From: a virus
Strand: one strand, 5' to 3'
DNA: 64,000 bases
IMG/VR virus record: IMGVR_UViG_3300045988_123324
Location: 32,001 to 96,000 of that record
Part shown: piece by piece, positions 1,448 through 56,314 of the stretch
Layout: every line of letters starts with the position of its first letter
Position numbering within the stretch: position 1 is the stretch's first letter
Notes under the pieces: model-generated
Databases searched by the model: none
What the model was told of the DNA's origin: nothing
The model's input: the letters and a program-made list of their open reading frames with translations, nothing else
Position numbers and translations under genes: made by a program

Positions 1448-3493
1448 TTACATTATCTCCTCTCCTATGTAATATGCCAATCCATAATTATTTAGATAAC
1501 CATATCCATCATCTGTTTTTATTGGTGAATCTATATGATGAGCACCTGTAAACTGTATTTTTTCACTACACCACTTTTGATTTAGTGTCCACGGATTCTT
1601 TCTCTTGCCCAATGAAAAACAACCATGATACTCATTTACTGTCTCTCTAGGTGTTAATACTGCCAAACTACTCATATTAAACATACTACAAAAGTTTATA
1701 TCATTAGTCATTCCAATCTTACTGAATGTTCCAAAGGAATCATCTTTTGGATCATCTTTACCTTCATCCTTTAATCCTACTGGGTTTCTCCTAACATAGA
1801 ATATAGTAGGTAGTAACTCAGTGCTTGTGTTTGCTGTATTTATATCCGCATTACATTTTCCTGCACTTTTTGATATAGTCTGTGTTATAAACTTATTTTC
1901 ATTATAGTTTGGAACTTCTTGTGTAAATTGATATGATTCTAGATCTGGATTCCAAAACACACCAACACCATCTTCTGTTGTGTGTTTAGTTATTGATGTA
2001 AATAATGGCTCTGCACTAAAATTACAATTCATTGGAGATGATACATTCCCACCAAATTTTGTGTGTACGAGTGTGCCAGTCTTTCTCTTACTTGCATCAT
2101 ATCTAGGCAGGTGGTCATAGAAATTCGTCACAAACCATGTGCTTGTACCATGAACATCTACCATCTTCTTTGTTGCCATATTTAACATCTTTGTAGTCTT
2201 TTTATCCGAATCATCAACAATAACTTTTATTGCCCCCATTAGATAGTTATTATTTTCGTCTCCAAAAGAATCTATTGCCATTACATTAGTATTTATACTT
2301 ACTCCATCTATATCATCACTATCTGGCGCAATTTCAAGATTTACTATATTGTGTGTAAAATCTCCATGCCATAGCTTATGAATCTCTTTAAGCAACTCAT
2401 CTGATGGATGCTTTTTATCTTTCATCTTATCATATAAGTCTTTAATTTGCTTTTTCATTTGTTCTACGTCTTCTTTTATTGCATCCTCTAGTTGCTCATT
2501 TAGTGGTTTTGGTGGTGGTGCATATATATCTGGCTGTGTGTGATATGCTTCATCCATTTTCTGCTGCTTTGCTTTTTCCATGTAGTCTTTAGTTTTTTGT
2601 GTTATTGACTTCTTAAACTCGTCCATTATCTTATTAAGTGCATTTTTAAATTCTGAATCATCTTGTATAGGCTCATTAGCTTTTGCAAGTTCATACATCT
2701 TTATCAGATTCACTAACTTTTCTGCATCTTCTATTGCTTTATCGTATTCCTTAACTCTAACATTTCCAACACCTAAGTTAGTATATAATGGCGTAACATC
2801 ATCATATTCATCTAATCCGTATCCACTTCCATGAAAATTAGCCTTTTGTGCAAGTATAGCAAATCCACCTTTTATTAGCTTATCTTCTTGCTCAAAAAAT
2901 CCAAAAGTATAGTGGGTTGAAGTCTTTGGATACTCATTTGTTGTTAATATAAAAGAAAACAACCCACTATTATAATAACAGTCTAGGCATAGCACATTTT
3001 CATTTTTTGGAACATACAGAGAAAATGTCACCCTAACTGGAAATTTACCAGTAATTCTTCTCGGAACTTTCTTAAACTTTCTTATCTTTGATATACTTTT
3101 AGATATTTCATCCCTATAATATTCATCCGCAAATTCTTTATAATATAATCTAGTTTCTTTTATTATACTATATGCTTTACCATTTGCTTCTTCTACTTTA
3201 GCCCTTGCTTTTGCTGTCTCAACATCATCCAACTCATTAACCTTCATATCTATATGTTGATGTGAGTATATCATGTAGTCTTGTGCTTCCTCTCTTTTAT
3301 GTGGGCTATTAGTAAAATATGCGGAAGCACTTAATTCAGAATCAATATTGACCTTGACATACATTTCCTTTTCTGGATATTCAATTTTAAGAATACTACC
3401 AGAATCGATTATCTTCCTATCTGGTAGCATATCTTTTATAAACTGCTTTGCTTTTTCCTGCCAAGAATCAACATTCATATATCTTTTGTGCAT
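1448..3493 (-). CDS. hypothetical tail-tip/baseplate-associated structural protein
   Basis: 681-aa ORF tightly packed downstream of the tape measure and tail-tip genes. Function inferred from position only. Confidence 0.5.
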   Translation of the reverse strand: MHKRYMNVDSWQEKAKQFIKDMLPDRKIIDSGSILKIEYPEKEMYVKVNIDSELSASAYFTNSPHKREEAQDYMIYSHQHIDMKVNELDDVETAKARAKVEEANGKAYSIIKETRLYYKEFADEYYRDEISKSISKIRKFKKVPRRITGKFPVRVTFSLYVPKNENVLCLDCYYNSGLFSFILTTNEYPKTSTHYTFGFFEQEDKLIKGGFAILAQKANFHGSGYGLDEYDDVTPLYTNLGVGNVRVKEYDKAIEDAEKLVNLIKMYELAKANEPIQDDSEFKNALNKIMDEFKKSITQKTKDYMEKAKQQKMDEAYHTQPDIYAPPPKPLNEQLEDAIKEDVEQMKKQIKDLYDKMKDKKHPSDELLKEIHKLWHGDFTHNIVNLEIAPDSDDIDGVSINTNVMAIDSFGDENNNYLMGAIKVIVDDSDKKTTKMLNMATKKMVDVHGTSTWFVTNFYDHLPRYDASKRKTGTLVHTKFGGNVSSPMNCNFSAEPLFTSITKHTTEDGVGVFWNPDLESYQFTQEVPNYNENKFITQTISKSAGKCNADINTANTSTELLPTIFYVRRNPVGLKDEGKDDPKDDSFGTFSKIGMTNDINFCSMFNMSSLAVLTPRETVNEYHGCFSLGKRKNPWTLNQKWCSEKIQFTGAHHIDSPIKTDDGYGYLNNYGLAYYIGEEIM

Positions 3494-7053: not shown

Positions 7054-7974
7054 TTACTCCTCTATCTTTATAGCAAAATATGTATTTGCCCCTCTATCCA
7101 TCTGTGTGTCAAACACTATAAACTTGCTTCCATCATACTGTAAGATTCTTTCTGCATCAATATCTCTTGCGCCAGAAATCCAATAGCATCCTCTAAGTAG
7201 TCCATTTAAGTCTACAGGATCATTTGTCTGTAGCATTATTGGAATGAGCAAGAAGTTATCCTGATTGATGCTATCAGTTTCCTTGTAGTTAGGAATCAGC
7301 TTTGTGTTGTGTGAAGCATACGGGAATACTGTCCCTGTTGATGAGGGACTTGGATTTGGCTTTGTTGCATTAAACGCTCTCCAATTCCCGTCTGCTCTGC
7401 GTAGCCATCCACTGCCACCATTAGGGAATACAAACGATCCTAATCCTTGTGCTGTCCACTCTTTAGTTCCTGCTACTGTATTACCACAAACATACATTGG
7501 ATATGGATACTGCCTCTCTGATGCAATAGGGTTGAGGAATCCTAGATACATTGATTCATATACGATTGACATTCTACATACAACAACGATTCTGTATGTA
7601 TCTACAAATATCCAATAGAAAAATCTTTCATTCTTAGTTATTGTGAAAGCAGGTTCATTTGCCTTGTACTGTGGTGCAAAATTTTCTTTCTCATCATCAT
7701 ACTTGCCCTCAGACTTTAGATATTGCTGTAGGCATCCTGGCTGTTCAAAGAACCCTAGCTTATCATCGTATCCAACCGCCGAATCAATTATAATCTTATT
7801 CTCTAAGTTGTGATAACTAATCATTATATAAATCTTATCTTGCCCACTACCTGTTCCACAATAAATATAAGTATCCTCTGATAGCTTATATGGTGTCCAT
7901 CCAACTGCCACCAATGCCTTTCTTATCTCATCAAATAGTATGCCTATACTATAGGTATTTCCTGTTACATACAA
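7054..7974 (-). CDS. hypothetical tail protein (distal tail/hub position)
   Basis: 306-aa ORF between the tape measure and the large tail-tip protein. Partial similarity to the middle of the 1183-aa protein. Confidence 0.45.
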   Translation of the reverse strand: MYVTGNTYSIGILFDEIRKALVAVGWTPYKLSEDTYIYCGTGSGQDKIYIMISYHNLENKIIIDSAVGYDDKLGFFEQPGCLQQYLKSEGKYDDEKENFAPQYKANEPAFTITKNERFFYWIFVDTYRIVVVCRMSIVYESMYLGFLNPIASERQYPYPMYVCGNTVAGTKEWTAQGLGSFVFPNGGSGWLRRADGNWRAFNATKPNPSPSSTGTVFPYASHNTKLIPNYKETDSINQDNFLLIPIMLQTNDPVDLNGLLRGCYWISGARDIDAERILQYDGSKFIVFDTQMDRGANTYFAIKIEE

Positions 7975-49788: not shown

Positions 49789-51537
49789 TTAGAATCCTAC
49801 AATTCTTGTTGCATCACTTATTTTTGACTTTGGTTGCATATACATCACACCATACCTAAGTGCATCACAATTATGTATAATAATATCTGACGTAGTGACT
49901 GCAAAACAATGAGTATCTTCTACCTCCATATTATATACATCTTCGTTTTCATGTTTATCTATATGAACAAGTTTTGTATGTGATACTGATGTTTTAATCA
50001 AATCTTCTGTTGTAATGTCTTTTGCCTCTACCCAACCACGATTTACTGTCAAAATCCTATGATCTGGTGTAACATTCAATATGTCTCTTGTATCAAATAC
50101 AAGAGAAATTACTTCTGTATCTTTTCTTGTCATATGAACATCAAAGAATCTTCTCGTGCAACAATATCCATTTTCATCACATGTGATAAGTTCTCCTGTT
50201 TTTCCAACGAGATCTTCTATTGGTATATAACCTTCTGTTGTATTTATCAATGTATCACCAGTTATGCAGGCGTGATCGTCAACCTTACGAGGAAGATCGA
50301 CTCCCCTAAGTTGCGCTTTCTCATCCCAAACGTATGTCTGTAGCTCTCTTATGAGATTTTCACACTGTTCCTCTATCAATATTTTTCCTTGTCCCATGTC
50401 AGACGCAACTGTCCTTATTCCTGGGAGAACATCATTTATAGCATTTTTTGTTTTCATGTGAAATCTTCGTGCCTGTAGTTTAAAACTACTTGCAGAAGGG
50501 TCAACAACTACAACAATCTGTCTGTATGTTCTCTGTGTTAATTCTGTTTCTTCGTTTATAAAATCTCTTAGATCATTTACATATTCTATATCTGTTTTTT
50601 GTGCTTCTTGGTTTCCGTCCTCTTCTTTTACTGCGGCTCGTCCATCAAAATAATATTCTTTGCATACATATATAGTATTATCTATGGTCTTACCGAGCAG
50701 TAAAAATGCTGTCGGGTTTGCTGTGCCTATATCACAACACACACACCAATCTATTATATCTTCATACGGAATATCCGATTGCTTTATGACATGTTCTTTT
50801 TTCTTAAACATATCATATATCAATCCGTCTGCAACCACCCATTTGCCTTCAATGTATCGTTTTGCAAACACGCCACTAAAATTTTTCTTATATCTATCAA
50901 GAACATCTTGTGGTAATGATAAATTATCTTCCATATTAAAATGAACGTATAATCCATCTTTCTCTCTTAGTTTCTTTAATACATTCTTATAAAACCAATG
51001 ATGTGGAGAAGATGGGTTACAATTTATAAACAACTTTGCTCCATCAATAGATAAACGAGATACTGCTTGATTGTAAAAAGACTCTGGCATTAGAACTGCT
51101 TCGTCTAGCAAAAGACCTGCAAGTGTCATACCTTGAATGAGATCTTGTGATGATTCGTCCTTACCACCAAAGATAAAGAAGTAATTTACTACCTCACACT
51201 TAATTATTTCTATGTAGTTCTCTGATCTGTGTTCAATAACATCATAATCTAATGCCATAAGCATCTGTTTCAATGTCATAAGCACGTTTCTTCTGAACGA
51301 TCCTACTGATTTACCACACATCGCAGCATTTTGTTGATTAAACGTGTTCATCATAAACAAAACAAAGGATAACGCCATGCTTACTGTCTTTCCGCTGCGA
51401 ATCGCGCCGTCAGCAATAAGCATAAACGAATCATTTACTGGCGATTTTTCTGTCCACCAACTTAGAACCTTTAATTGCTTGTTTGAAAAGGGTTTAAATT
51501 TAAATGCTGATAATTTCAGTTTCTTGTTATTAGCCAT
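49789..51537 (-). CDS. terL: terminase large subunit containing a mini-intein
   Basis: Walker A ADGAIRSGKT, Walker B LLLDEA, nuclease motifs VVVVDPS and DDHA|..|CDALRY, split by a 133-aa Hint domain. Confidence 0.9.
   Translation of the reverse strand: MANNKKLKLSAFKFKPFSNKQLKVLSWWTEKSPVNDSFMLIADGAIRSGKTVSMALSFVLFMMNTFNQQNAAMCGKSVGSFRRNVLMTLKQMLMALDYDVIEHRSENYIEIIKCEVVNYFFIFGGKDESSQDLIQGMTLAGLLLDEAVLMPESFYNQAVSRLSIDGAKLFINCNPSSPHHWFYKNVLKKLREKDGLYVHFNMEDNLSLPQDVLDRYKKNFSGVFAKRYIEGKWVVADGLIYDMFKKKEHVIKQSDIPYEDIIDWCVCCDIGTANPTAFLLLGKTIDNTIYVCKEYYFDGRAAVKEEDGNQEAQKTDIEYVNDLRDFINEETELTQRTYRQIVVVVDPSASSFKLQARRFHMKTKNAINDVLPGIRTVASDMGQGKILIEEQCENLIRELQTYVWDEKAQLRGVDLPRKVDDHACITGDTLINTTEGYIPIEDLVGKTGELITCDENGYCCTRRFFDVHMTRKDTEVISLVFDTRDILNVTPDHRILTVNRGWVEAKDITTEDLIKTSVSHTKLVHIDKHENEDVYNMEVEDTHCFAVTTSDIIIHNCDALRYGVMYMQPKSKISDATRIVGF
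49870..50268 (-). mobile_element. mini-intein (133 aa, no endonuclease domain) in the terL nuclease motif
   Basis: Block A is CITGDTLI, block B is TPDHRILT, and the C-terminus is IIIHN followed by the +1 Cys. Excision restores VDDHA-CDALRYG. Confidence 0.85.
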
Positions 51538-52213
51538 CTTCCTTTAATGCCTCATCAAGGTCACTATACACATTATCACCTGTCCATGTATCATCAATTC
51601 TTCCAGTAATGGCATCGAGTATTCTGCTATCTTCTTTTGCCTTATTATCCTTCTCTGCTTGCCACTCCATAAAGTCTTTTATTTTATCCCAACATGAAAG
51701 TTTATCTACAAGCTGTATAGTAACTCCATCTTTACCCTGTTTGATACTACTGACAAGAGACATATCCAAATCTTTACTGTTATTTAAGAATACTCTGCTT
51801 CTTTTATTTGTGATTGGTTCGCCAGTATCCATATTTAGAACTGGATTTCCTTCTTTATCAAGAACTGGCTTTTCTTCTTCCTCTACTCTTACATAATCTC
51901 CTATATTTGCATTTGCAGCTTTTAGAAGAAATTCTATGTACTGTGTTGGATCAATATCAAAACCAACTGACATTATCTTTCTTGCTCGCTTTATCGCCGC
52001 TCTAATATGTGGTCTTTGTAGTAGTTCACAAGCCTTAACTCTTGATGTTGTTATATTATCCATATTATATGCCTTGCGATAACTCTGAGCACCGTTGTAT
52101 GATTCTAAATACAGAAGTAGGAATGTCTTTTCATTCTCAGTCATATCACTTCCAAATATTTCTTCAAAAATTTTATCATTTACAACTTCTTTTACGTCTT
52201 TTCCCATATGCAA
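51530..52213 (-). CDS. terS: terminase small subunit
   Basis: N-terminal HTH-like TENEKTFLLLYLESYNGAQSYRKAY....RVKACELLQRPHIRAAI. Overlaps the terL start. Confidence 0.8.
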   Translation of the reverse strand: MHMGKDVKEVVNDKIFEEIFGSDMTENEKTFLLLYLESYNGAQSYRKAYNMDNITTSRVKACELLQRPHIRAAIKRARKIMSVGFDIDPTQYIEFLLKAANANIGDYVRVEEEEKPVLDKEGNPVLNMDTGEPITNKRSRVFLNNSKDLDMSLVSSIKQGKDGVTIQLVDKLSCWDKIKDFMEWQAEKDNKAKEDSRILDAITGRIDDTWTGDNVYSDLDEALKEDG

Positions 52214-52271
52214 TCTCCTTTCTAAATATTATATTTAATTATAACACAATTAATTTGTAAAGTCAATAGAA

Positions 52272-52302
52272 AACACAAAAAGCCCACCATTTCTGGTGAG
52301 CC
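52272..52302 (-). terminator. intrinsic terminator closing non-coding block A
   Basis: Minus strand reads GCTCACCAGAAATGGTGGGCTTTTTGTGTTTTC. Confidence 0.75.
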
Positions 52303-52990
52303 TTATGCGGAAAGGAGACAATTAAAATGAACTAGGACTTCATAAGACTTTCGCCTTACTCCGTCTGTGAGACTAGGCAGGTAAACGCGAATACCATTTT
52401 GCCTAGAGAACACACACGTCTGTCAAAGAACCACTTTATAAGATGTGGTAGAAATACTCCGTGTAAGTCATTTCTATAGCGGCTACATACCCAACGCGCT
52501 TTCCACATCCAGTAGCCATTGCAACAACACCATTATCTTGTTGCTCCCAATCTAGGTTGAAACCTTATCTTCTCTGTAGCAGGATTTTTGGATTTGCACC
52601 AAAGTCTTACAACTGGTTTTGTTGTATGTTCTTCTGTTAAACTAAATCCGCATGGTCGGGCATACAGGTAACGCTCCTGTGTCTTGGGTTTATAAGACCC
52701 CTGCACTCACTTTTGTGCTAATGCCCAATATTTCTTATGTAGCCCCACCCATCGCCCATAAGTTGAAGCCATTCTGACATTCTGCTTTGAGTTGTCAAGC
52801 ATGCGCTTCCTCCTGCTGTTTGTACTTTTGGCTTTTATTATCTAGGCACAGCCTACTCGCACATCATTTTGTTATATATCAGTATTTTGTTTTGCTGTTT
52901 GTGCCTACTCACAAGACGCTTATGGACACCTGCTGTGTTAGATTTGATTTCAGTTCAAATTTATAAATGATTTGCTGTCTGCGTCTTTAT
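52272..52990 (-). ncRNA. candidate large structured non-coding RNA A (approx. 0.7 kb)
   Basis: No ORF of 60 aa or more on either strand. Has its own promoter (52997-53025) and terminator. Long-range helices pair 52981-87 with 52913-19 (AAGACGC/GCGTCTT) and 52900-07 with 52843-50 (TAGGCACA/TGTGCCTA), plus CTAGGCA..TGCCTAG. GC-rich patches sit in AT-rich surroundings. Confidence 0.55.
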
Positions 52991-52996
52991 GTATAT

Positions 52997-53025
52997 ATCT
53001 TACCACATCTTTTTACTGTTGTCAA
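52997..53025 (-). promoter_or_regulatory. sigma-A-type promoter TTGACA-17-TAAGAT driving block A
   Basis: Minus strand reads TTGACA, then ACAGTAAAAAGATGTGG (17 nt), then TAAGAT. The -10 overlaps the stop codon of the upstream vWA gene. Confidence 0.6.
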
Positions 53026-54547
53026 CCCTAATTTCAAAAATTTTATCAACAATTTCGTATCGTGGTAAATTAAGTTGCTTTACAAGAGCCTTATACGGAT
53101 CTAGCTCACTTGACATCACCATATCCATAAGATTCTTGCTGAATCCACTGATAAGAATTACTCCATTTTCATTCTGCGTGAGAGGTACTGTGTTTGTCCT
53201 AGAATTTACGTTCCAGAAAACTAACTTTGGAAGTTTATATCCTTCCTTCTTGTACTTTTCCGCTATGGTTTCAAACAACGCTTTATTGCCCTTTTCATTG
53301 TAATATCCTTGCGCCATGTTGAACTCCATATCACTCACAATTAGTACAGTCTTTGGCATATCTTCTTGTGATACGCCATTCTTTACTGCGGTGTCAAGAA
53401 TAAGATCAAAAACACTCTCAATATTCGTACTTGAAATATCATCATATTTTGCAAGATATTTGAGCTTATCATGAAGATTATCAAGATGTGATACATCAAT
53501 CAACTTAGCCCATGAACTAAACGTGATGAACTTGTCTTTGAACGCTCCTTCATTATTCTCTGCACAATAAAGAGTGATTGCATCTGCAACTTCAAGTGCG
53601 GTAAGACCTGACTTATCAACTGGAACAGTCATAGATCCGCTACCATCACGAACAACAACAGTATCGCTAAACCCATTACACTTATCCTGTGCTTTCCATA
53701 GTTGCTCAAGTGTCTCGTCATAATCCTTATGCACGGCACACCATTCACCAAACTCTGCGTAAGCATGGACAATATCATGGAGAAACATAGCGTTTGCATT
53801 GATCTTTGTCTCACCCTTCTTGAGTGATTCAAGATACTTTTCTCTGCGCTCCCCATCATGACGCTCAAACGCATTACGATAGTTTACATTAGCCTTTGAT
53901 GGAACTGCTGAGTAGTCAATTTCTCCCCACTCATTTTCAGACATCTTACGCTCAACAACATCAATATATGCACGTAGTTCTGATAAAATCTTTCGATATT
54001 CGCTCTTTAGCATACCAAGATAATTGCAGATCATCTTTGCTTTTGCACAAGTTTCTTTACTGCTTGCATTGATGCTAGGAAGCCATTTTGCCAGGAGTGA
54101 TACAGATTTCTTATCATCCATATCTTGCATATCATTCACAAGTTGCTTGTCAATCTTATCTAAAATCATATTGCGAATAAAATCATTGTCTGTACGATAG
54201 GCAATATCTACGTAATCATCCCATCGACCATATTCCGCAATATCAACTTCCTTAATAAAGATATTGGCAAGATCAACATCATATGAGATAAGTTCAAGCA
54301 CAAAGTCTCTAAATGATTTACGCTCGCCGATTCCTTCTCGAACATCCCTAAGATAAAGAAGCCACTTGAGCGTCAGCTTTTCATCCTCATTGAGTGCTTG
54401 CTTAAACAAGTCCTTATCAATAGTCTTTCTAAATGAAGGTACTTGAAAATTTAGATCAACTAACTTACTTCCAGATGTTTTAAATCCAACAGCACCATTC
54501 TCTGTTACTGACTTTTCGTCATTCTCAATCATTTTCATAAAATCCAT
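53000..54547 (-). CDS. DUF2828-type protein: helical TROVE-like N-domain plus C-terminal vWA domain
   Basis: N-terminus ..SVTENGAVGFKTSGSKLVDLNF resembles the DUF2828/TROVE start. The C-terminus has a vWA MIDAS-like VVVRDGSGSM and later VLIVSDMEFN. Confidence 0.6.
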   Translation of the reverse strand: MDFMKMIENDEKSVTENGAVGFKTSGSKLVDLNFQVPSFRKTIDKDLFKQALNEDEKLTLKWLLYLRDVREGIGERKSFRDFVLELISYDVDLANIFIKEVDIAEYGRWDDYVDIAYRTDNDFIRNMILDKIDKQLVNDMQDMDDKKSVSLLAKWLPSINASSKETCAKAKMICNYLGMLKSEYRKILSELRAYIDVVERKMSENEWGEIDYSAVPSKANVNYRNAFERHDGERREKYLESLKKGETKINANAMFLHDIVHAYAEFGEWCAVHKDYDETLEQLWKAQDKCNGFSDTVVVRDGSGSMTVPVDKSGLTALEVADAITLYCAENNEGAFKDKFITFSSWAKLIDVSHLDNLHDKLKYLAKYDDISSTNIESVFDLILDTAVKNGVSQEDMPKTVLIVSDMEFNMAQGYYNEKGNKALFETIAEKYKKEGYKLPKLVFWNVNSRTNTVPLTQNENGVILISGFSKNLMDMVMSSELDPYKALVKQLNLPRYEIVDKIFEIRVDNSKKMW

Positions 54548-54748
54548 GTTTTATTCCTCCTAGACACTAAATAGTCAAACTGCTGTAAATGCCTAAATAC
54601 TCAAGACAGTATCTTGTTAGCTGATTTTAGGTCAGCACAGAATGATTGCTGTTACTGCCTTTTATTTCATATATTCTCTGGTAGGCAATTATATCCTACT
54701 ACAAGTCCGCAAACTTGTCAGCCTATTAAATGTTTCAGAGAAAAATTA

Positions 54749-54835
54749 TGGTGCTGACAGCGAGATTCGAACTCGCACCCACTTAACTAGAACGGTTTTT
54801 GAGACCGTCGTGTCTGCCAATTCCACCATGCCAGC
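54749..54835 (-). tRNA. tRNA-Leu(CAA): tRNA-Leu, anticodon CAA (type II, long variable arm, CCA encoded)
   Basis: Cloverleaf folded by hand. Acceptor GCTGGCA/TGTCAGC, anticodon stem ACGGT/ACCGT, loop CTCAAAA, T arm GCGAG-TTCGAAT-CTCGC. 87 nt. Confidence 0.9.
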
Positions 54836-54847
54836 ATTATATCATAT

Positions 54848-55087
54848 TCAAATTCCAAAGTCAAGTCTTTCTTTTGGAATTTCTTGTTCGTATTCTGTAC
54901 GATAGATTACAACCTTTTCTGCATCATACTTATTATATAACCCAGTTGATAGCAAAATCGCATCCATCTCAGTGTGTACTTCACATAGGATCATATTTCC
55001 GTGTGTTTCTACATTACTGCATAAAGTTTCTAGCTTTTCTACAAGCTCTTTGTTTACTTCTTTATAGTAAGATTTAACGAGAATCAT
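54848..55087 (-). CDS. hypothetical 79-aa protein lying between tRNA genes
   Basis: Start taken at MILVKSYYKE (AAGGAAG RBS). The longer ORF-track start would overlap tRNA-Arg. Confidence 0.45.
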   Translation of the reverse strand: MILVKSYYKEVNKELVEKLETLCSNVETHGNMILCEVHTEMDAILLSTGLYNKYDAEKVVIYRTEYEQEIPKERLDFGI

Positions 55088-55111
55088 ATTATCTTCTTCC
55101 TTATTAACAAA

Positions 55112-55187
55112 TGGTACGCCTAGAGGAACTCGAATCCCCGACAAGTGCTTTAGAAGAACACTGCTCTTCCAACTGAGCTATAGGCGT
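55112..55187 (-). tRNA. tRNA-Arg(TCT): tRNA-Arg, anticodon UCU (CCA encoded)
   Basis: Acceptor ACGCCTA/TAGGCGT, D arm GCTC-AGTTGGAA-GAGC, anticodon loop CTTCTAA, T arm GGGGA-TTCGAGT-TCCTC. 76 nt. Confidence 0.9.
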
Positions 55188-55191
55188 ATTA

Positions 55192-55267
55192 TGGAGCTTC
55201 TAGCTAGGATTGAACTAGCGACCTACTGATTACAAATCAGTCGTTCTACCAACTGAACTATAGAAGC
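55192..55267 (-). tRNA. tRNA-Thr(TGT): tRNA-Thr, anticodon UGU (CCA encoded)
   Basis: Acceptor GCTTCTA/TAGAAGC, D arm GTTC-AGTTGGTA-GAAC, anticodon loop TTTGTAA, T arm GCTAG-TTCAATC-CTAGC. 76 nt. Confidence 0.9.
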
Positions 55268-55268
55268 A

Positions 55269-55552
55269 TGGTGGAGCTGACGGTATTGAAACCGTGTCCA
55301 GAGACTACTTTCATATAAACCTTATACACGCTTGTTGAAAAGGTTTTGGTAGATTAGGTCTACCAGCCCAATGACATAGTTGGTTTTATTAGACCACTAA
55401 CAACATAACCAACTAGAAAAGTTATTAGTAGTTGCTTTTAAGCCGCTAGGCTGTAAACTTCGTTTTCGTCAGTTCTTTTGTTTGCTGTTTTACTGGTACG
55501 CCCCAGACGTGAGTTTATATGTAGTTTTCCTCTGTCGAAACCTTTCAGCCCC
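55269..55552 (-). ncRNA. ssrA: tmRNA (transfer-messenger RNA), 284 nt
   Basis: 5' end GGGGCTGAAAGGTTTCGACAGAGG and 3' end GGACACGGTTTCAATACCGTCAGCTCCACCA, matching the canonical tmRNA ends. Internal frame GCA AAC AAA AGA ACT GAC GAA AAC GAA GTT TAC AGC CTA GCG GCT TAA (55438-55485) encodes ANKRTDENEVYSLAA. Confidence 0.85.
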
Positions 55553-55570: not shown

Positions 55571-56314
55571 TCACTGTGAAACATCTTTGTCAAGCATTTT
55601 TTCTGCTTTTTCTTTTGATTCTTTTATTATAGAAATATCTCTCTCGCAATCTGCCTTTATAAATCTTAGATTGATTCCATTTTTCTTGCAAGTCTTAATA
55701 AATTTTCTATATTCTATTTCACTCACAAGATTACTTCTCCCATTTATTGCTTCAACAATATAATCATCTAAGTAAAATACATCAACATTCTTTATTGGTG
55801 ATACATTCATATTTTGGCTATATGCAAAAGTATAAACAGCACACATCAAAGAAAGTTCAAGTGCGTTTATCTCTGTAATCTTAAAGAAAGGCTCTTGGTA
55901 TGTAATTTCTCCATTCTTAACAACTGTATAAGAACAAACATTCTTGTAATTGCCTAAATATATCTTTAAGTAATCTTCTTCAAAAAATAATCTAATTTTC
56001 TTTCTCTTCTTTCTCTCTATTATTCTATATTCCTCAGACAGTCTATATACTATATCTCTTTTGGCAAGACGATCTGTCATTAAAGAAAGTTGTTCTCTAA
56101 AATCTTCAAGACTATATGTATCTTTATACAAATTGCAATCGTGACAAGAAGGATTCAAGTTACTTTCATCATCAGTACCACCTTTACGTACTGCTAAGAT
56201 ATGATCTACTCTTAGATTTTTTCTATCTTCTATGAGTTTTCCACAGTATGCACACCTCTTACCATACTTCATCCACACATTCTGTCTTGTTTTATCTTGT
56301 ATTTTGCTTCGCAT
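55571..56314 (-). CDS. HNH endonuclease with an extra C-terminal domain
   Basis: CAYCGK....VDHILAVRKGGTDDESNLNPSCHDCNLYK HNH core at the N-terminus. The C-terminal 130 aa loosely resemble an RNase H-like layout (TEINALELSL..DVFYLDDYIV). That resemblance is weak. Confidence 0.7.
   Translation of the reverse strand: MRSKIQDKTRQNVWMKYGKRCAYCGKLIEDRKNLRVDHILAVRKGGTDDESNLNPSCHDCNLYKDTYSLEDFREQLSLMTDRLAKRDIVYRLSEEYRIIERKKRKKIRLFFEEDYLKIYLGNYKNVCSYTVVKNGEITYQEPFFKITEINALELSLMCAVYTFAYSQNMNVSPIKNVDVFYLDDYIVEAINGRSNLVSEIEYRKFIKTCKKNGINLRFIKADCERDISIIKESKEKAEKMLDKDVSQ

What the first reader, a model, noticed from the sequence alone, without database searches (positions are those of the whole stretch)
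52272..52990. Block A: 0.7-kb ORF-free transcription unit with its own promoter, terminator and long-range helices
A TTGACA-17-TAAGAT promoter (52997-53025) and a strong terminator (52272-52302) delimit about 715 nt with no ORF of 60 aa or more in any frame.

The inferred RNA begins with AAGACGC, which pairs with GCGTCTT about 65 nt downstream. TAGGCACA pairs with TGTGCCTA, and CTAGGCA pairs with TGCCTAG. Several GC-rich patches stand out against the AT-rich genome, which is typical of structured RNA in AT-rich phages.

Size, phage context and proximity to tRNAs fit the GOLLD/ROOL class, but I cannot confirm membership from memory of the consensus. It could be a new class.
Basis: partly seen in the sequence, partly recalled or inferred. 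Interest (0 to 1): 0.75.

Follow-up and report, generated by a model that had tools for sequence, protein, structure and literature searches.

The report
Small-RNA operon beside phage Ro60-like gene
The 0.7-kb gene-free block is not one giant RNA but a string of small structured RNAs, two of them from a widespread and apparently undescribed family that always sits next to a phage or bacterial Ro60-like RNA-binding protein and is probably its RNA partner.

Summary
A conserved promoter and a strong terminator bracket about 715 nt with no ORF longer than 59 aa, and all three named helices exist. The GOLLD/ROOL reading does not hold: Rfam gives no such match even at E<=10, and relatives gain and lose parts of the block independently.

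The block is a polycistronic non-coding operon just downstream of a DUF2828/DUF7788 gene. That protein's AlphaFold model matches Ro60 over its full length. The block holds:
- two tandem 65-75-nt RNAs with a 7-bp terminal stem followed by ANACAGCAA
- a conserved 115-nt element of unknown role
- a non-canonical tRNA-Ile(UAU)
- a tRNA-like RNA
- a clade-specific structured tail of about 270 nt

The stem+ACAGCAA unit covaries strongly. It gave 207 same-strand hits in 80 loci chosen by the protein. A scan of bacterial genomes with the RNA pattern alone returned 67 loci, 49 of which carry the protein gene, and 14 of those have rtcB behind it. Units also flank homologues in cultured Staphylococcus, Listeria, Mycobacterium, Campylobacter, Vibrio and E. 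coli phages.

Best reading: these are Y-RNA-like partners of a Ro60-like protein. Binding is inferred, not shown.

The parts
52997..53025 (-). Sigma-70-type promoter of the block: TTGACA, 17-nt spacer, TG-n-TAAGAT. It overlaps the last codons and the stop codon of the Ro60-like gene.
   Evidence: Consensus scan. Conserved in win, L002, L006, L007, L008 and L009 (A3).
52913..52987 (-). Unit 1, a Y-RNA-like small RNA of 75 nt. Terminal stem AAGACGC/GCGUCUU, then AGACAGCAA, then an inner hairpin UUUGA-ACUGAAA-UCAAA.
   Evidence: R1 covariance model, 54.5 bits, E=4e-11. The inner hairpin shows a compensatory change in L006, UUUUA/UAAAA. Fold.
52843..52907 (-). Unit 2, a Y-RNA-like small RNA of 65 nt. 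Terminal stem UAGGCAC/GUGCCUA, then AAACAGCAA.
   Evidence: R1, 36.6 bits, E=6e-7 with filters off. This unit was itself in the R1 training alignment A5. Motif positions. Family covariation.
52728..52842 (-). Conserved 115-nt element ('mid') of unknown role. It contains AGCAGGAGG, a UUGACA...UGUCAG hairpin and GGCUUCAACUUAUGGGCGAUGGRUGGGGCYACAUAAGA. It is not a standard unit and not coding.
   Evidence: nhmmer finds it in win, L001, L002, L006, L090 and the L007 clade. The reading frame is not conserved. No closing stem was found. The consensus structure is weak.
52653..52727 (-). Non-canonical tRNA-Ile(UAU) with an encoded CCA (52655-52653). The T-loop is AGCGUUA and the D-loop is AAAAGUGA with no GG.
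   Evidence: Rfam tRNA 47.2 bits against a gathering score of 29. ARAGORN does not call it. Compensatory changes occur in all four stems against L006, L008 and L086. A canonical tRNA-Ile(UAU) sits at the same place in L002 and L090 (A6). Fold z = -2.7.
52579..52651 (-). tRNA-like RNA ('tl2'). Its acceptor-type stem has a conserved bulged U, the 'anticodon' loop reads ARAACCA, the T-like loop reads UGCAAAU, and there is no CCA.
   Evidence: The MFE structure is a cloverleaf. It is conserved in L002, L090 and L016, with compensatory changes in the acceptor and T stems (A7). It does not match the Rfam tRNA model.
52305..52578 (-). Clade-specific structured 3' domain (core 52312-52476). It includes the CUAGGCA/UGCCUAG helix, which has a T-loop-like UUCGCGU hairpin, and a GNRA hairpin UAAGGC-GAAA-GUCUUA. 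Its single-stranded UCUCCUUUC (52318-52310) is complementary to the terS ribosome-binding site.
   Evidence: RNAalifold on five sequences predicts 68 pairs, 19 with compensatory changes (A9). The domain is found only in win, L001, L089, L002, L090 and L006. There is a weak csRNA resemblance, 24.3 bits against a gathering score of 57.
52272..52304 (-). Intrinsic terminator of the block.
   Evidence: Scan. Conserved, with two compensatory pairs.
53000..54547 (-). Ro60-like protein gene of 515 aa (Pfam DUF2828 + DUF7788). It is the predicted protein partner of the units.
   Evidence: Pfam. AlphaFold2 model with mean pLDDT 91.7. The ten best Foldseek PDB matches are all Ro60/TROVE over the full length.
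54603..54661 (-). Unit upstream of the Ro60-like gene: AAGGCAG|UAACAGCAA|...|CUGUCUU.
   Evidence: R1, 23.2 bits, E=8e-4. Fold z = -2.5. Sequence.
54561..54595 (-). Mini-unit UAGGCAU|UUACAGCA|...|GUGUCUA. Its 3' strand abuts the GGAGG Shine-Dalgarno sequence (54560-54556) of the Ro60-like gene, so it is a possible autoregulatory operator.
   Evidence: R1, 10.9 bits (weak). Sequence. KVP40 has an analogous arrangement in which the stem encloses the SD and AUG.

Best explanation
Block A is a promoter-to-terminator operon of small non-coding RNAs. It lies immediately downstream of, and probably also reads through from, a phage gene for a Ro60-like ring protein (DUF2828/DUF7788).

Inferred step: the ~715-nt primary transcript is cut into tRNA-sized pieces, probably by the host tRNA-processing enzymes that release the embedded tRNA.

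Shown: the first two pieces are members of a large family. Each has a 7-bp stem formed by its 5' and 3' ends (WAGNNNC...GNNNCUW-G). The stem is followed directly on the 5' side by single-stranded ANACAGCAA, then an AU-rich loop and one inner hairpin.

Inferred step: the stem-plus-ACAGCAA element is the binding site of the Ro60-like protein, so these RNAs play the part that Y RNAs play for Ro60. They would tether or gate the protein for RNA surveillance, repair or decay during infection. Copies that abut the protein's own ribosome-binding site may autoregulate it.

The rest of the block adds a non-canonical tRNA-Ile(UAU), a tRNA-like RNA, a conserved 115-nt element and a clade-specific structured tail. 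The roles of these four are unknown.
For: Protein:
- The AlphaFold2 model (pLDDT 91.7) has ten best PDB matches that are all Ro60/TROVE. They cover 518-577 alignment columns at E 4e-9 to 3e-6.
- GenBank annotators already call homologues 'Ro-like RNA binding protein'.

RNA structure:
- On 29 diverse units, 5 of 7 stem pairs show double changes, in 46 cells. The covariation score is 0.617 against 0.165 in shuffles, and 0 of 500 shuffles reach it.
- G-U pairs place the structure on the transcribed strand.
- 94 of 136 motif occurrences have a 7/7 partner, against 24% of random positions.

Association with the protein gene:
- Model R1 gives 207 hits at E<=0.01 in 80 loci fetched by the protein. 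All are on the gene's strand, and 75 of the 80 loci have at least one hit.
- In the 64-kb window the significant hits cluster within 150 nt of the two ends of the gene.

Reverse test:
- A genome scan with the RNA pattern alone returned 67 loci.
- 49 of them hold a DUF2828 homologue (29-57% identity).
- 48 of those 49 have it on the same strand as the unit, and in 45 of the 48 the unit lies upstream, with a median gap of 136 nt.
- 14 loci have rtcB directly behind the gene, as in the rsr-yrl-rtcBA operon.

Breadth:
- Units lie beside homologues in Staphylococcus phage 6ec, Listeria LP-064, Mycobacterium Krypton555, Campylobacter F365, E. coli phage adrianh and Vibrio KVP40.
- One adrianh unit encloses a T-arm, a 7-bp stem-loop and a D-arm-like hairpin, in that order. 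This is the permuted tRNA module of YrlA (PMC4201824).

Modularity of the block.
Against: - No transcript, processing or binding data exist. Binding is inferred from co-location and architecture alone.
- The conserved motif (ANACAGCAA) is unlike the known Ro60-binding motif (GNCGAAN0-1G / GGUCCGA).
- Units are interleaved with tRNA genes in phages, so some of the association could reflect tRNA arrays rather than the protein. Units do occur with the gene in bacterial loci that have no tRNAs.
- Fold z-scores of single units are modest, -1.5 to -2.5.
- Alignment A5 was built from units chosen for perfect stems, so its 100% pairing is by construction.
- About a third of the block (the 115-nt element and the tail) has no assigned function.
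Confidence: 0.7

Rival explanations
1. The units are cis-acting elements only: translational or transcriptional operators, or processing signals, of the Ro60-like gene and the tRNA operon. They would not be stable trans-acting partner RNAs.
For: - In bacterial genomes the unit lies a median of 136 nt upstream of the gene on the same strand.
- The window's mini-unit ends at the Shine-Dalgarno sequence.
- In KVP40 the stem encloses the SD and AUG.
Against: - Phages carry 2-7 tandem copies, many of them downstream of the gene or between tRNAs. These copies have their own promoter and exact tRNA-like spacing.
- Units 1 and 2 of the window lie after the gene's stop codon.
- Larger relatives carry extra folded modules. 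An operator would have no need of them.
Confidence: 0.15
2. The whole 0.7 kb acts as one large structured RNA, either GOLLD/ROOL-like or a new large class.
For: - One promoter and one terminator bracket the block, and no internal terminator is predicted.
- The whole-block fold has z = -4.0.
- RNAalifold proposes one long-range helix inside the tail.
- The block is in a phage and near tRNAs.
Against: - There is no GOLLD or ROOL hit even at E<=10.
- Relatives replace the single tRNA by 0-9 tRNAs. They also add a unit and an 84-nt insert (L002), lose tl2 and the 5' part of the tail (L006), and interpose ORFs (L007).
- The MFE structure is a chain of local modules.
Confidence: 0.06
3. The block is a decaying tRNA array, made of pseudo-tRNAs and spacers with no function of their own.
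For: - Relatives have full tRNA arrays at this site.
- The units are tRNA-sized, with 7-bp terminal stems and anticodon-like inner hairpins.
- ARAGORN does not call the tRNA.
Against: - Stems are kept by compensatory changes across deep divergence.
- The ACAGCAA motif is invariant from Firmicutes phages to Vibrio, E. coli and Mycobacterium phages.
- Units occur next to the protein gene in bacterial chromosomes with no tRNA array.
Confidence: 0.05
4. The repeats are DNA-level sites, such as terminase pac/cos or other protein-binding repeats, located upstream of terS.
For: - The block lies directly upstream of terS.
- The motif occurs three times at a spacing of about 80 bp.
Against: - All 207 hits share the gene's strand.
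- Pairing is preserved through G-U pairs and compensatory changes.
- The same units occur in bacterial rtcB operons far from any terminase.
- In relatives up to 1.9 kb of tRNAs separate the units from terS.
Confidence: 0.03

Closest known systems
Bacterial and phage Y RNAs (Yrn1, YrlA/YrlB, phiLo Yrl1/2) bound by Ro60/Rsr (PMC4201824; PMC12135203)
   Same: - Small RNAs are encoded within a few hundred nt of a Ro60-fold gene, on the same strand and often in several copies.
- The 5' and 3' ends pair into a terminal stem. A conserved short motif sits on the 5' strand next to a large loop, with apical stem-loops above it.
- Small and large forms both exist. Some large forms carry a permuted tRNA-like module (L161 6421-6560).
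- In bacteria the locus often continues into rtcB.
   Different: - The protein belongs to the DUF2828/DUF7788 sequence family, not Pfam TROVE.
- The conserved motif is ANACAGCAA directly after a 7-bp stem, not GNCGAAN0-1G or CGAA.
- Most units are minimal (47-119 nt, median 61) and have no tRNA-like domain.
- No binding data exist.
Felixounavirus Bas63 gp130 (PhageMaP preprint, PMC11482910)
   Same: - The tblastn matches of the window protein include many Felixounavirus records, for example phage adrianh. Bas63 itself was not checked.
- The preprint notes structural similarity to Ro60 and a position directly upstream of the tRNA array.
- Its authors proposed that some neighbouring 'tRNAs' are Y RNAs, and found that gp130 counters the Ppl defence system.
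   Different: - That work did not identify the partner RNA.
- Here the candidates are not the annotated tRNAs. They are stem+ACAGCAA units in the spacers between tRNAs.
GOLLD and ROOL large RNAs
   Same: Non-coding RNA in a phage or prophage, close to tRNAs, with a total length of about 0.7 kb.
   Different: - There is no covariance-model match.
- The block is not one conserved architecture. It is an operon of independent small RNAs whose content varies between close relatives.
Phage tRNA gene arrays with tmRNA
   Same: The block is the remnant of such an array. It is flanked by three tRNAs and a tmRNA (54749-55552) and contains one tRNA-type gene. Relatives hold up to nine tRNAs at this position.
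   Different: Most of the block is not tRNA. The one tRNA it keeps has an altered elbow (T-loop AGCGUUA), and that alteration is conserved.

Membership tests
GOLLD / ROOL (Rfam covariance models) | Scores at or near the family's gathering score against the Rfam model | tested here: not met
   cmscan of the whole window at the gathering score, and of 52100-53200 at E<=10, gave only tRNA plus chance-level hits. The same result held in 18 related loci.
GOLLD / ROOL (Rfam covariance models) | One large RNA whose multi-stem architecture is conserved as a unit among homologues | tested here: not met
   Modules are gained and lost independently in L002, L006 and L007-L010.
GOLLD / ROOL (Rfam covariance models) | Phage or prophage location close to tRNA genes | tested here: met
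   Terminase genes and tRNAs flank the block.
Y RNA (Ro60-associated: Yrn1, YrlA, YrlB) | Encoded near a Ro60-family gene and on the same strand | tested here: met
   The protein has a Ro60 fold. All 207 hits share the gene's strand, and 75 of 80 loci have a hit. The reverse scan gave 49 of 67 loci with the gene, 48 of those on the same strand.
Y RNA (Ro60-associated: Yrn1, YrlA, YrlB) | Terminal stem formed by the 5' and 3' ends, adjoining a large internal loop and apical stem-loop(s) | tested here: met
   The 7-bp stem covaries. With the stem constrained, 57 of 78 units fold with a single inner hairpin.
Y RNA (Ro60-associated: Yrn1, YrlA, YrlB) | Ro60-binding motif GNCGAAN0-1G (bacteria) or GGUCCGA (animals) on the 5' strand | tested here: not met
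   The conserved motif is ANACAGCAA (column counts). The reference motif is taken from PMC4201824.
Y RNA (Ro60-associated: Yrn1, YrlA, YrlB) | tRNA-like module with T-arm and D-arm (YrlA subclass) | tested here: inconclusive
   The module is absent from the window's units 1 and 2. It is present in some relatives, for example L161 6421-6560 with T-arm, 7-bp stem-loop and D-arm-like hairpin, and T-arm-like hairpins occur in long units.
Y RNA (Ro60-associated: Yrn1, YrlA, YrlB) | Physically bound by the Ro60 protein | not testable with these tools
   This needs RIP, EMSA or a solved structure.
Ro60 / TROVE protein family (for gene 53000-54547) | Ring of helical repeats followed by a vWA domain | tested here: met
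   AlphaFold2 model with pLDDT 91.7 and pTM 0.91. The ten best Foldseek matches are Ro60 structures (9kop, 9l5y, 1yvr, 2i91, 2nvo, 9nep and others) with TM 0.45-0.58.
Ro60 / TROVE protein family (for gene 53000-54547) | Sequence match to the Pfam TROVE or Ro60 models, or to solved Ro60 sequences | tested here: not met
   Pfam gives DUF2828 and DUF7788. vWA_Ro60 reaches only E=0.007, 16.8 bits against a cut-off of 27.7. A profile search of PDB sequences found no Ro60.
tRNA (for 52727-52656) | Rfam tRNA model at or above the gathering score, with the cloverleaf kept by compensatory changes | tested here: met
   47.2 bits against 29. Compensatory changes occur in all four stems.
tRNA (for 52727-52656) | Canonical elbow: T-loop UUCRANY and D-loop GG | tested here: not met
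   The T-loop is AGCGUUA and the D-loop is AAAAGUGA. ARAGORN does not call the gene.
csRNA (Rfam RF02379; for the 3' end, 52359-52277) | Score at or above the gathering score | tested here: not met
   24.3 bits against 57, E=1.4.

The most novel reading that the evidence does not exclude
The stem+ACAGCAA RNAs are the cognate 'Y RNAs' of the whole DUF2828 branch of Ro60-like proteins. That branch covers more than 700 cultured phage records (FelixO1-like, KVP40-like and Listeria P100-like phages, plus staphylococcal, campylobacter and cluster-L mycobacteriophages) and many Firmicutes chromosomes with rtcB. On this reading the RNAs and the protein form a ribonucleoprotein that phages use to protect or remodel the (t)RNA pool, or to disarm defences such as Ppl. 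This would be a second, sequence-unrelated solution to Ro60-RNA recognition.
Probability: 0.55. Interest if true: 0.8.

Novelty: new variant of a known kind. Interest (0 to 1): 0.7.

Why it matters
Ro60 and its Y RNAs form a conserved RNA-surveillance system, but partner RNAs are known for only a minority of Ro60-type proteins.

The DUF2828 branch is very large. More than 7,900 homologues were scored in one search, and 711 cultured phage records carry one. It sits next to tRNA arrays, tmRNA and RtcB. One member (Bas63 gp130) is reported to counter a bacterial defence system (PMC11482910), yet no RNA ligand has been named.

A simple sequence-plus-structure signature found beside these genes from Firmicutes to Proteobacteria and Actinobacteria gives a concrete candidate ligand. 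It can be tested in cultured phages by pull-down, mutation of ACAGCAA, and deletion phenotypes on Ppl hosts.

The result also shows that 'ORF-free gaps' in phage tRNA arrays hold a distinct RNA gene family that annotation pipelines miss.

Tried and rejected
- **Sequence search.** blastn (distant mode) of the block against 50,697 phage records found no match.
- **Rfam.** Searches at the gathering score and at permissive E-values were run on the window, on 30 related loci in two batch scans, and on E. coli phage and Oribacterium loci. They returned only tRNA, tmRNA and an unrelated riboswitch.
- **Small protein.** The 31-aa ORF with an AGGAGG ribosome-binding site (52802-52707) was rejected. The conserved nucleotides are read in another frame in L006, and the ATG is missing in the L007 clade.
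- **The 115-nt element as a third unit.** It was tested as a degenerate or long-range third unit and rejected. ACAGCA is not conserved in L006 or L090, and no consistent closing stem exists.
- **ACAGCAA pairing within a unit.** The partner seen in unit 1 (GACA/UGUC) is absent from other units, so the motif is treated as single-stranded.
- **The tail in wider relatives.** Profile nhmmer found it only in the closest clade. I did not build a covariance model for it.
- **PDB sequence search.** A profile of the protein family found nothing. Only the fold comparison showed the Ro60 relationship.
- **R1 hit at 7607-7539.** It lies inside a plausible coding region and lacks the C of ACAGCAA, so it is taken as chance.
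- **Literature.** Searches for DUF2828, Ro-like, TROVE/vWA/phage and Y RNA/prophage found no description of the RNA family. Two Ro60 reviews were not held in the library.
Full report
**Observation.** All features lie on the minus strand.
- The region 52272-52990 sits between a 515-aa gene (54547-53000) and terS (52213-51530).
- It has no ORF longer than 59 aa.
- A TTGACA-17-TG-n-TAAGAT promoter (53025-52997) precedes it, and an 11-bp hairpin with a T-run (52304-52279) closes it.
- Both signals are conserved in relatives.
- G+C is modestly raised, 0.42-0.435 against 0.27-0.37.
- The 719-nt RNA folds at -205.8 kcal/mol against -178.6 +/- 6.8 for shuffles, z = -4.0.

**Not GOLLD or ROOL, and not one RNA.**
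- Rfam 15 gives no large-RNA match in the window at the gathering score. Nothing relevant appears in 52100-53200 at E<=10.
- Rfam instead finds a tRNA at 52727-52656 inside the block, scoring 47.2 bits. ARAGORN misses it.
- Two viral contigs share the block. L001 is 98% identical. L002 is about 82-84% identical in three pieces.
- L002 has four canonical tRNAs (Thr, Phe, Asn, Ile-UAU) where the window has one. It also carries an extra 61-nt unit and an 84-nt insert.
- Other relatives fetched through the neighbouring protein carry 0-9 tRNAs, and even ORFs, between the same flanks.
- nhmmer shows that the pieces of the block have different distributions.

The block is therefore an operon of separate modules, embedded in a variable tRNA array. 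That array also includes three tRNAs and a tmRNA upstream (54749-55552).

**The two 5' helices are separate small RNAs of one family.**
- CANACAGCA occurs three times in the block at a spacing of 79-80 nt, against 2.4 expected in the whole 64 kb.
- The 13-mer GCACANACAGCAA occurs once or twice, always on the gene's strand, in 35 of the 84 loci held at that point.
- The contexts give a common unit: 5'-WAGNNNC | ANACAGCAA | about 35-100 nt | GNNNCUW | G.
- Of 136 distinct motif occurrences, 94 have a perfect 7-bp partner downstream, against 24% of random positions.
- On 29 diverse units, five of the seven pairs show double changes (46 cells). The covariation score is 0.617 against 0.165 for shuffles (0 of 500 reach it) and at most 0.12 for slid partners. 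Those units were chosen for intact stems, so the 100% pairing is by construction. The diversity of pair types is not.
- With the stem constrained, most units fold into one inner hairpin beyond an AU-rich loop.
- In the window the covariance model R1 finds four units:
  - unit 1 at 52990-52909 (54.5 bits);
  - unit 2 at 52907-52839 (36.6 bits; this unit was in the R1 training alignment);
  - a third unit at 54664-54599 (23.2 bits);
  - a mini-unit at 54598-54557 (10.9 bits), whose 3' strand abuts the Shine-Dalgarno sequence of the 515-aa gene.

**The neighbouring protein is Ro60-like.**
- Pfam calls it DUF2828 + DUF7788, with only a sub-threshold vWA_Ro60 hit.
- A profile search of PDB sequences finds nothing.
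- The AlphaFold2 model is confident, with pLDDT 91.7 and pTM 0.91.
- Its ten best Foldseek matches are all Ro60/TROVE structures aligned over the full length. They include Thermus phage phiLo Ro60, Xenopus Ro60 and Deinococcus Rsr, at E 4e-9 to 3e-6.
- Homologues occur in 711 cultured phage records. They are annotated variously as 'RNA-binding protein', 'Ro-like RNA binding protein', 'vWFA protein' or DUF2828.

**The RNA and the protein travel together.**
- In 80 loci fetched only through the protein (45-95% identity), R1 gives 207 hits at E<=0.01.
- Every hit is on the gene's strand, and 75 of the 80 loci have at least one hit. Three of the five loci without a hit are cut short upstream.
- For the reverse test I scanned one genome per prokaryotic species with the RNA pattern alone (AAGACACANACAGCAA-N32-62-GTGTCTTG). 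This returned 67 loci, mostly from Clostridia, Bacilli and Mollicutes, including Oribacterium and Butyrivibrio isolates.
- Of those 67, 49 hold a DUF2828 homologue at 29-57% identity.
- Of those 49, 48 have it on the same strand as the unit, and in 45 of the 48 the unit is upstream, with a median gap of 136 nt.
- Seven of the 18 loci without the gene have less than 650 nt of sequence on the relevant side.
- In 14 loci rtcB follows the gene directly. This is the layout of the rsr-yrlBA-rtcBA RNA-repair operon (established knowledge; PMC4201824, PMC7790460).
- Some contexts are plainly chromosomal and lack tRNAs.
- In Oribacterium asaccharolyticum a small unit and a unit of about 240 nt with a G+C-rich insert both precede the gene. 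This recalls the small and large Y RNAs of Salmonella and Mycobacterium.

**Cultured phages.** R1 hits or plain motif-plus-stem units lie beside the homologue, on its strand, in the following phages:
- Staphylococcus phage 6ec has three tandem units (41, 38 and 29 bits).
- Mycobacterium phage Krypton555 has one at 31 bits.
- Listeria phage LP-064 has three, with an RtcB-like ligase 1.3 kb away.
- Campylobacter phage F365 has one at 24 bits.
- Enterococcus phage GVEsP-1 has a weak hit.
- E. coli Felixounavirus adrianh has four AGACCRW|WUACAGCAA|...|WYGGUCU|GG units in tRNA-array spacers.
- Vibrio phage KVP40 has a stem that encloses the gene's SD and AUG.

One adrianh unit (L161 6421-6560) encloses a T-arm, a 7-bp stem-loop and a D-arm-like hairpin, in that order. 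This is the permuted tRNA module described for YrlA (PMC4201824). No Rfam family matches any of these units, even at E<=5.

**Other parts of the block.**
- *tRNA, 52727-52656.* It has anticodon UAU, an encoded CCA, T-loop AGCGUUA and a D-loop without GG. L006, L008 and L086 keep these oddities while changing both sides of pairs in all four stems. L002 and L090 have a canonical tRNA-Ile(UAU) at the same place. It is therefore a maintained variant, not a pseudogene.
- *tl2, 52651-52579.* It folds as a cloverleaf with a bulged U in the acceptor stem, an ARAACCA loop and a UGCAAAU T-like loop. It is kept, with compensatory changes, as far as L016.
- *'mid', 52842-52728.* It is strongly conserved but neither coding nor clearly structured.
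- *Tail, 52578-52305.* It has 19 pairs with compensatory changes in five sequences and is limited to the closest clade. Its 3' single strand, UCUCCUUUC (52318-52310), is the exact complement of the terS ribosome-binding site GAAAGGAGA (52222-52214). It also resembles csRNAs weakly, at 24.3 bits against a gathering score of 57.

**Mechanism.**
- *Shown:* a conserved, strand-specific, covarying RNA unit that is tightly linked to a Ro60-fold gene across phyla, and a modular operon layout.
- *Inferred:*
  - The ~715-nt transcript is processed into small RNAs. In relatives, units abut tRNAs with gaps of 0-3 nt, so RNase P and RNase Z cleavage would release them.
  - The stem-plus-ACAGCAA element is the protein's binding site.
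  - The complex acts as Ro60-Y RNA particles do, in RNA surveillance, repair or decay.
  - Copies at the ribosome-binding site autoregulate the gene.
- A preprint reports that the Felixounavirus member gp130 is Ro60-like, lies upstream of the tRNA array and counters the Ppl defence. It guesses that some tRNAs are its Y RNAs (PMC11482910). The units described here are a more specific candidate.

**Comparison and novelty.** The system works like Ro60 with its Y RNAs, and the protein's Ro-likeness is already recognised. The RNA fails the sequence-defined membership test for known Y RNAs because it has no GNCGAA or CGAA motif. It is absent from Rfam 15, and I found no description of it in the searchable literature. 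That library is incomplete. I therefore class it as a new variant of a known kind. As a GOLLD/ROOL candidate the finding fails. As a pointer to an unannotated RNA family it is valuable.

Noticed in passing
window 55269-55552 (-), with tRNAs at 55192-55267, 55112-55187 and 54749-54835 (-): The phage carries a tmRNA gene (79.5 bits) directly followed by tRNA-Thr, tRNA-Arg and tRNA-Leu, each cluster with a strong consensus promoter. The same tmRNA-tRNA arrangement recurs in relatives L001, L002, L006 and L012.
   Followed up: partly
window 52653-52727 (-); L006 5323-5394; L008 3995-4064; L086 10954-11023: A tRNA-Ile(UAU) variant has T-loop AGCGUUA and a D-loop lacking GG. It is kept by compensatory changes in several phage lineages, while sister phages keep a canonical version at the same site. 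ARAGORN does not detect it.
   Followed up: partly
window 52579-52651 (-); L016 6451-6552: A tRNA-like cloverleaf has a conserved bulged U in the acceptor stem and an ACCA-containing 'anticodon' loop. A similar UGCAACU loop on a G5/C5 stem occurs inside the large unit upstream of the Oribacterium DUF2828 gene (L139, about 2235-2219 on the minus strand).
   Followed up: partly
window 52310-52318 (-) and 52214-52222 (-): UCUCCUUUC, just before the block's terminator, is the exact complement of the terS ribosome-binding site GAAAGGAGA about 90 nt downstream in the next transcript. It also resembles the 16S anti-SD sequence and the csRNA seed region. It could act as an sRNA-type regulator of terminase translation.
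   Followed up: no
window 49789-51537 (-): The large terminase subunit has sub-threshold Hint/intein-type Pfam hits in its C-terminal part (Intein_splicing at residues 467-515, PT-HINT at 430-556). This hints at an intein or Hint insertion.
   Followed up: no
window 55571-56314 (-): An HNH endonuclease gene lies immediately upstream of the tmRNA promoter. Staphylococcus phage 6ec likewise has an HNH gene and terS just before its Ro-like gene, which there sits between terS and terL.
   Followed up: no
L159 3470-6237; also L094, L095, L101, L104, L110, L116, L123, L128, L133, L136, L148, L157, L160: Bacterial (Clostridia) loci have the order unit, DUF2828 gene, rtcB on one strand. This parallels the rsr-Y RNA-rtcB repair operon. 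In Oribacterium a WYL-domain gene is divergently placed (L139 2640-3647).
   Followed up: partly
L161 (E. coli phage adrianh) 6421-6560: A 140-nt unit has an inner part that reads T-arm (GAAGG-UUCGAUU-CCUUC), 7-bp stem-loop and D-arm-like hairpin. This is the permuted tRNA module of YrlA, set on an ACAGCAA-type basal stem in a tRNA-array spacer that is annotated as empty.
   Followed up: partly
L025-L053 (for example L026 about 2990-3150; L025 about 2180-2360): In some large gut phages the ACAGCAA motif lies inside a longer RNA closed by an acceptor-like stem next to a canonical T-arm (GUGGGUUCAAAUCCCAC). This suggests further architectural subtypes of the family.
   Followed up: no
window 7539-7607 (-): R1 gives a weak hit (22 bits, E about 0.014) with a perfect UAGAUAC/GUAUCUA stem, but with ACAG-AA in place of ACAGCAA. 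It lies inside a 306-aa ORF and is probably chance.
   Followed up: partly
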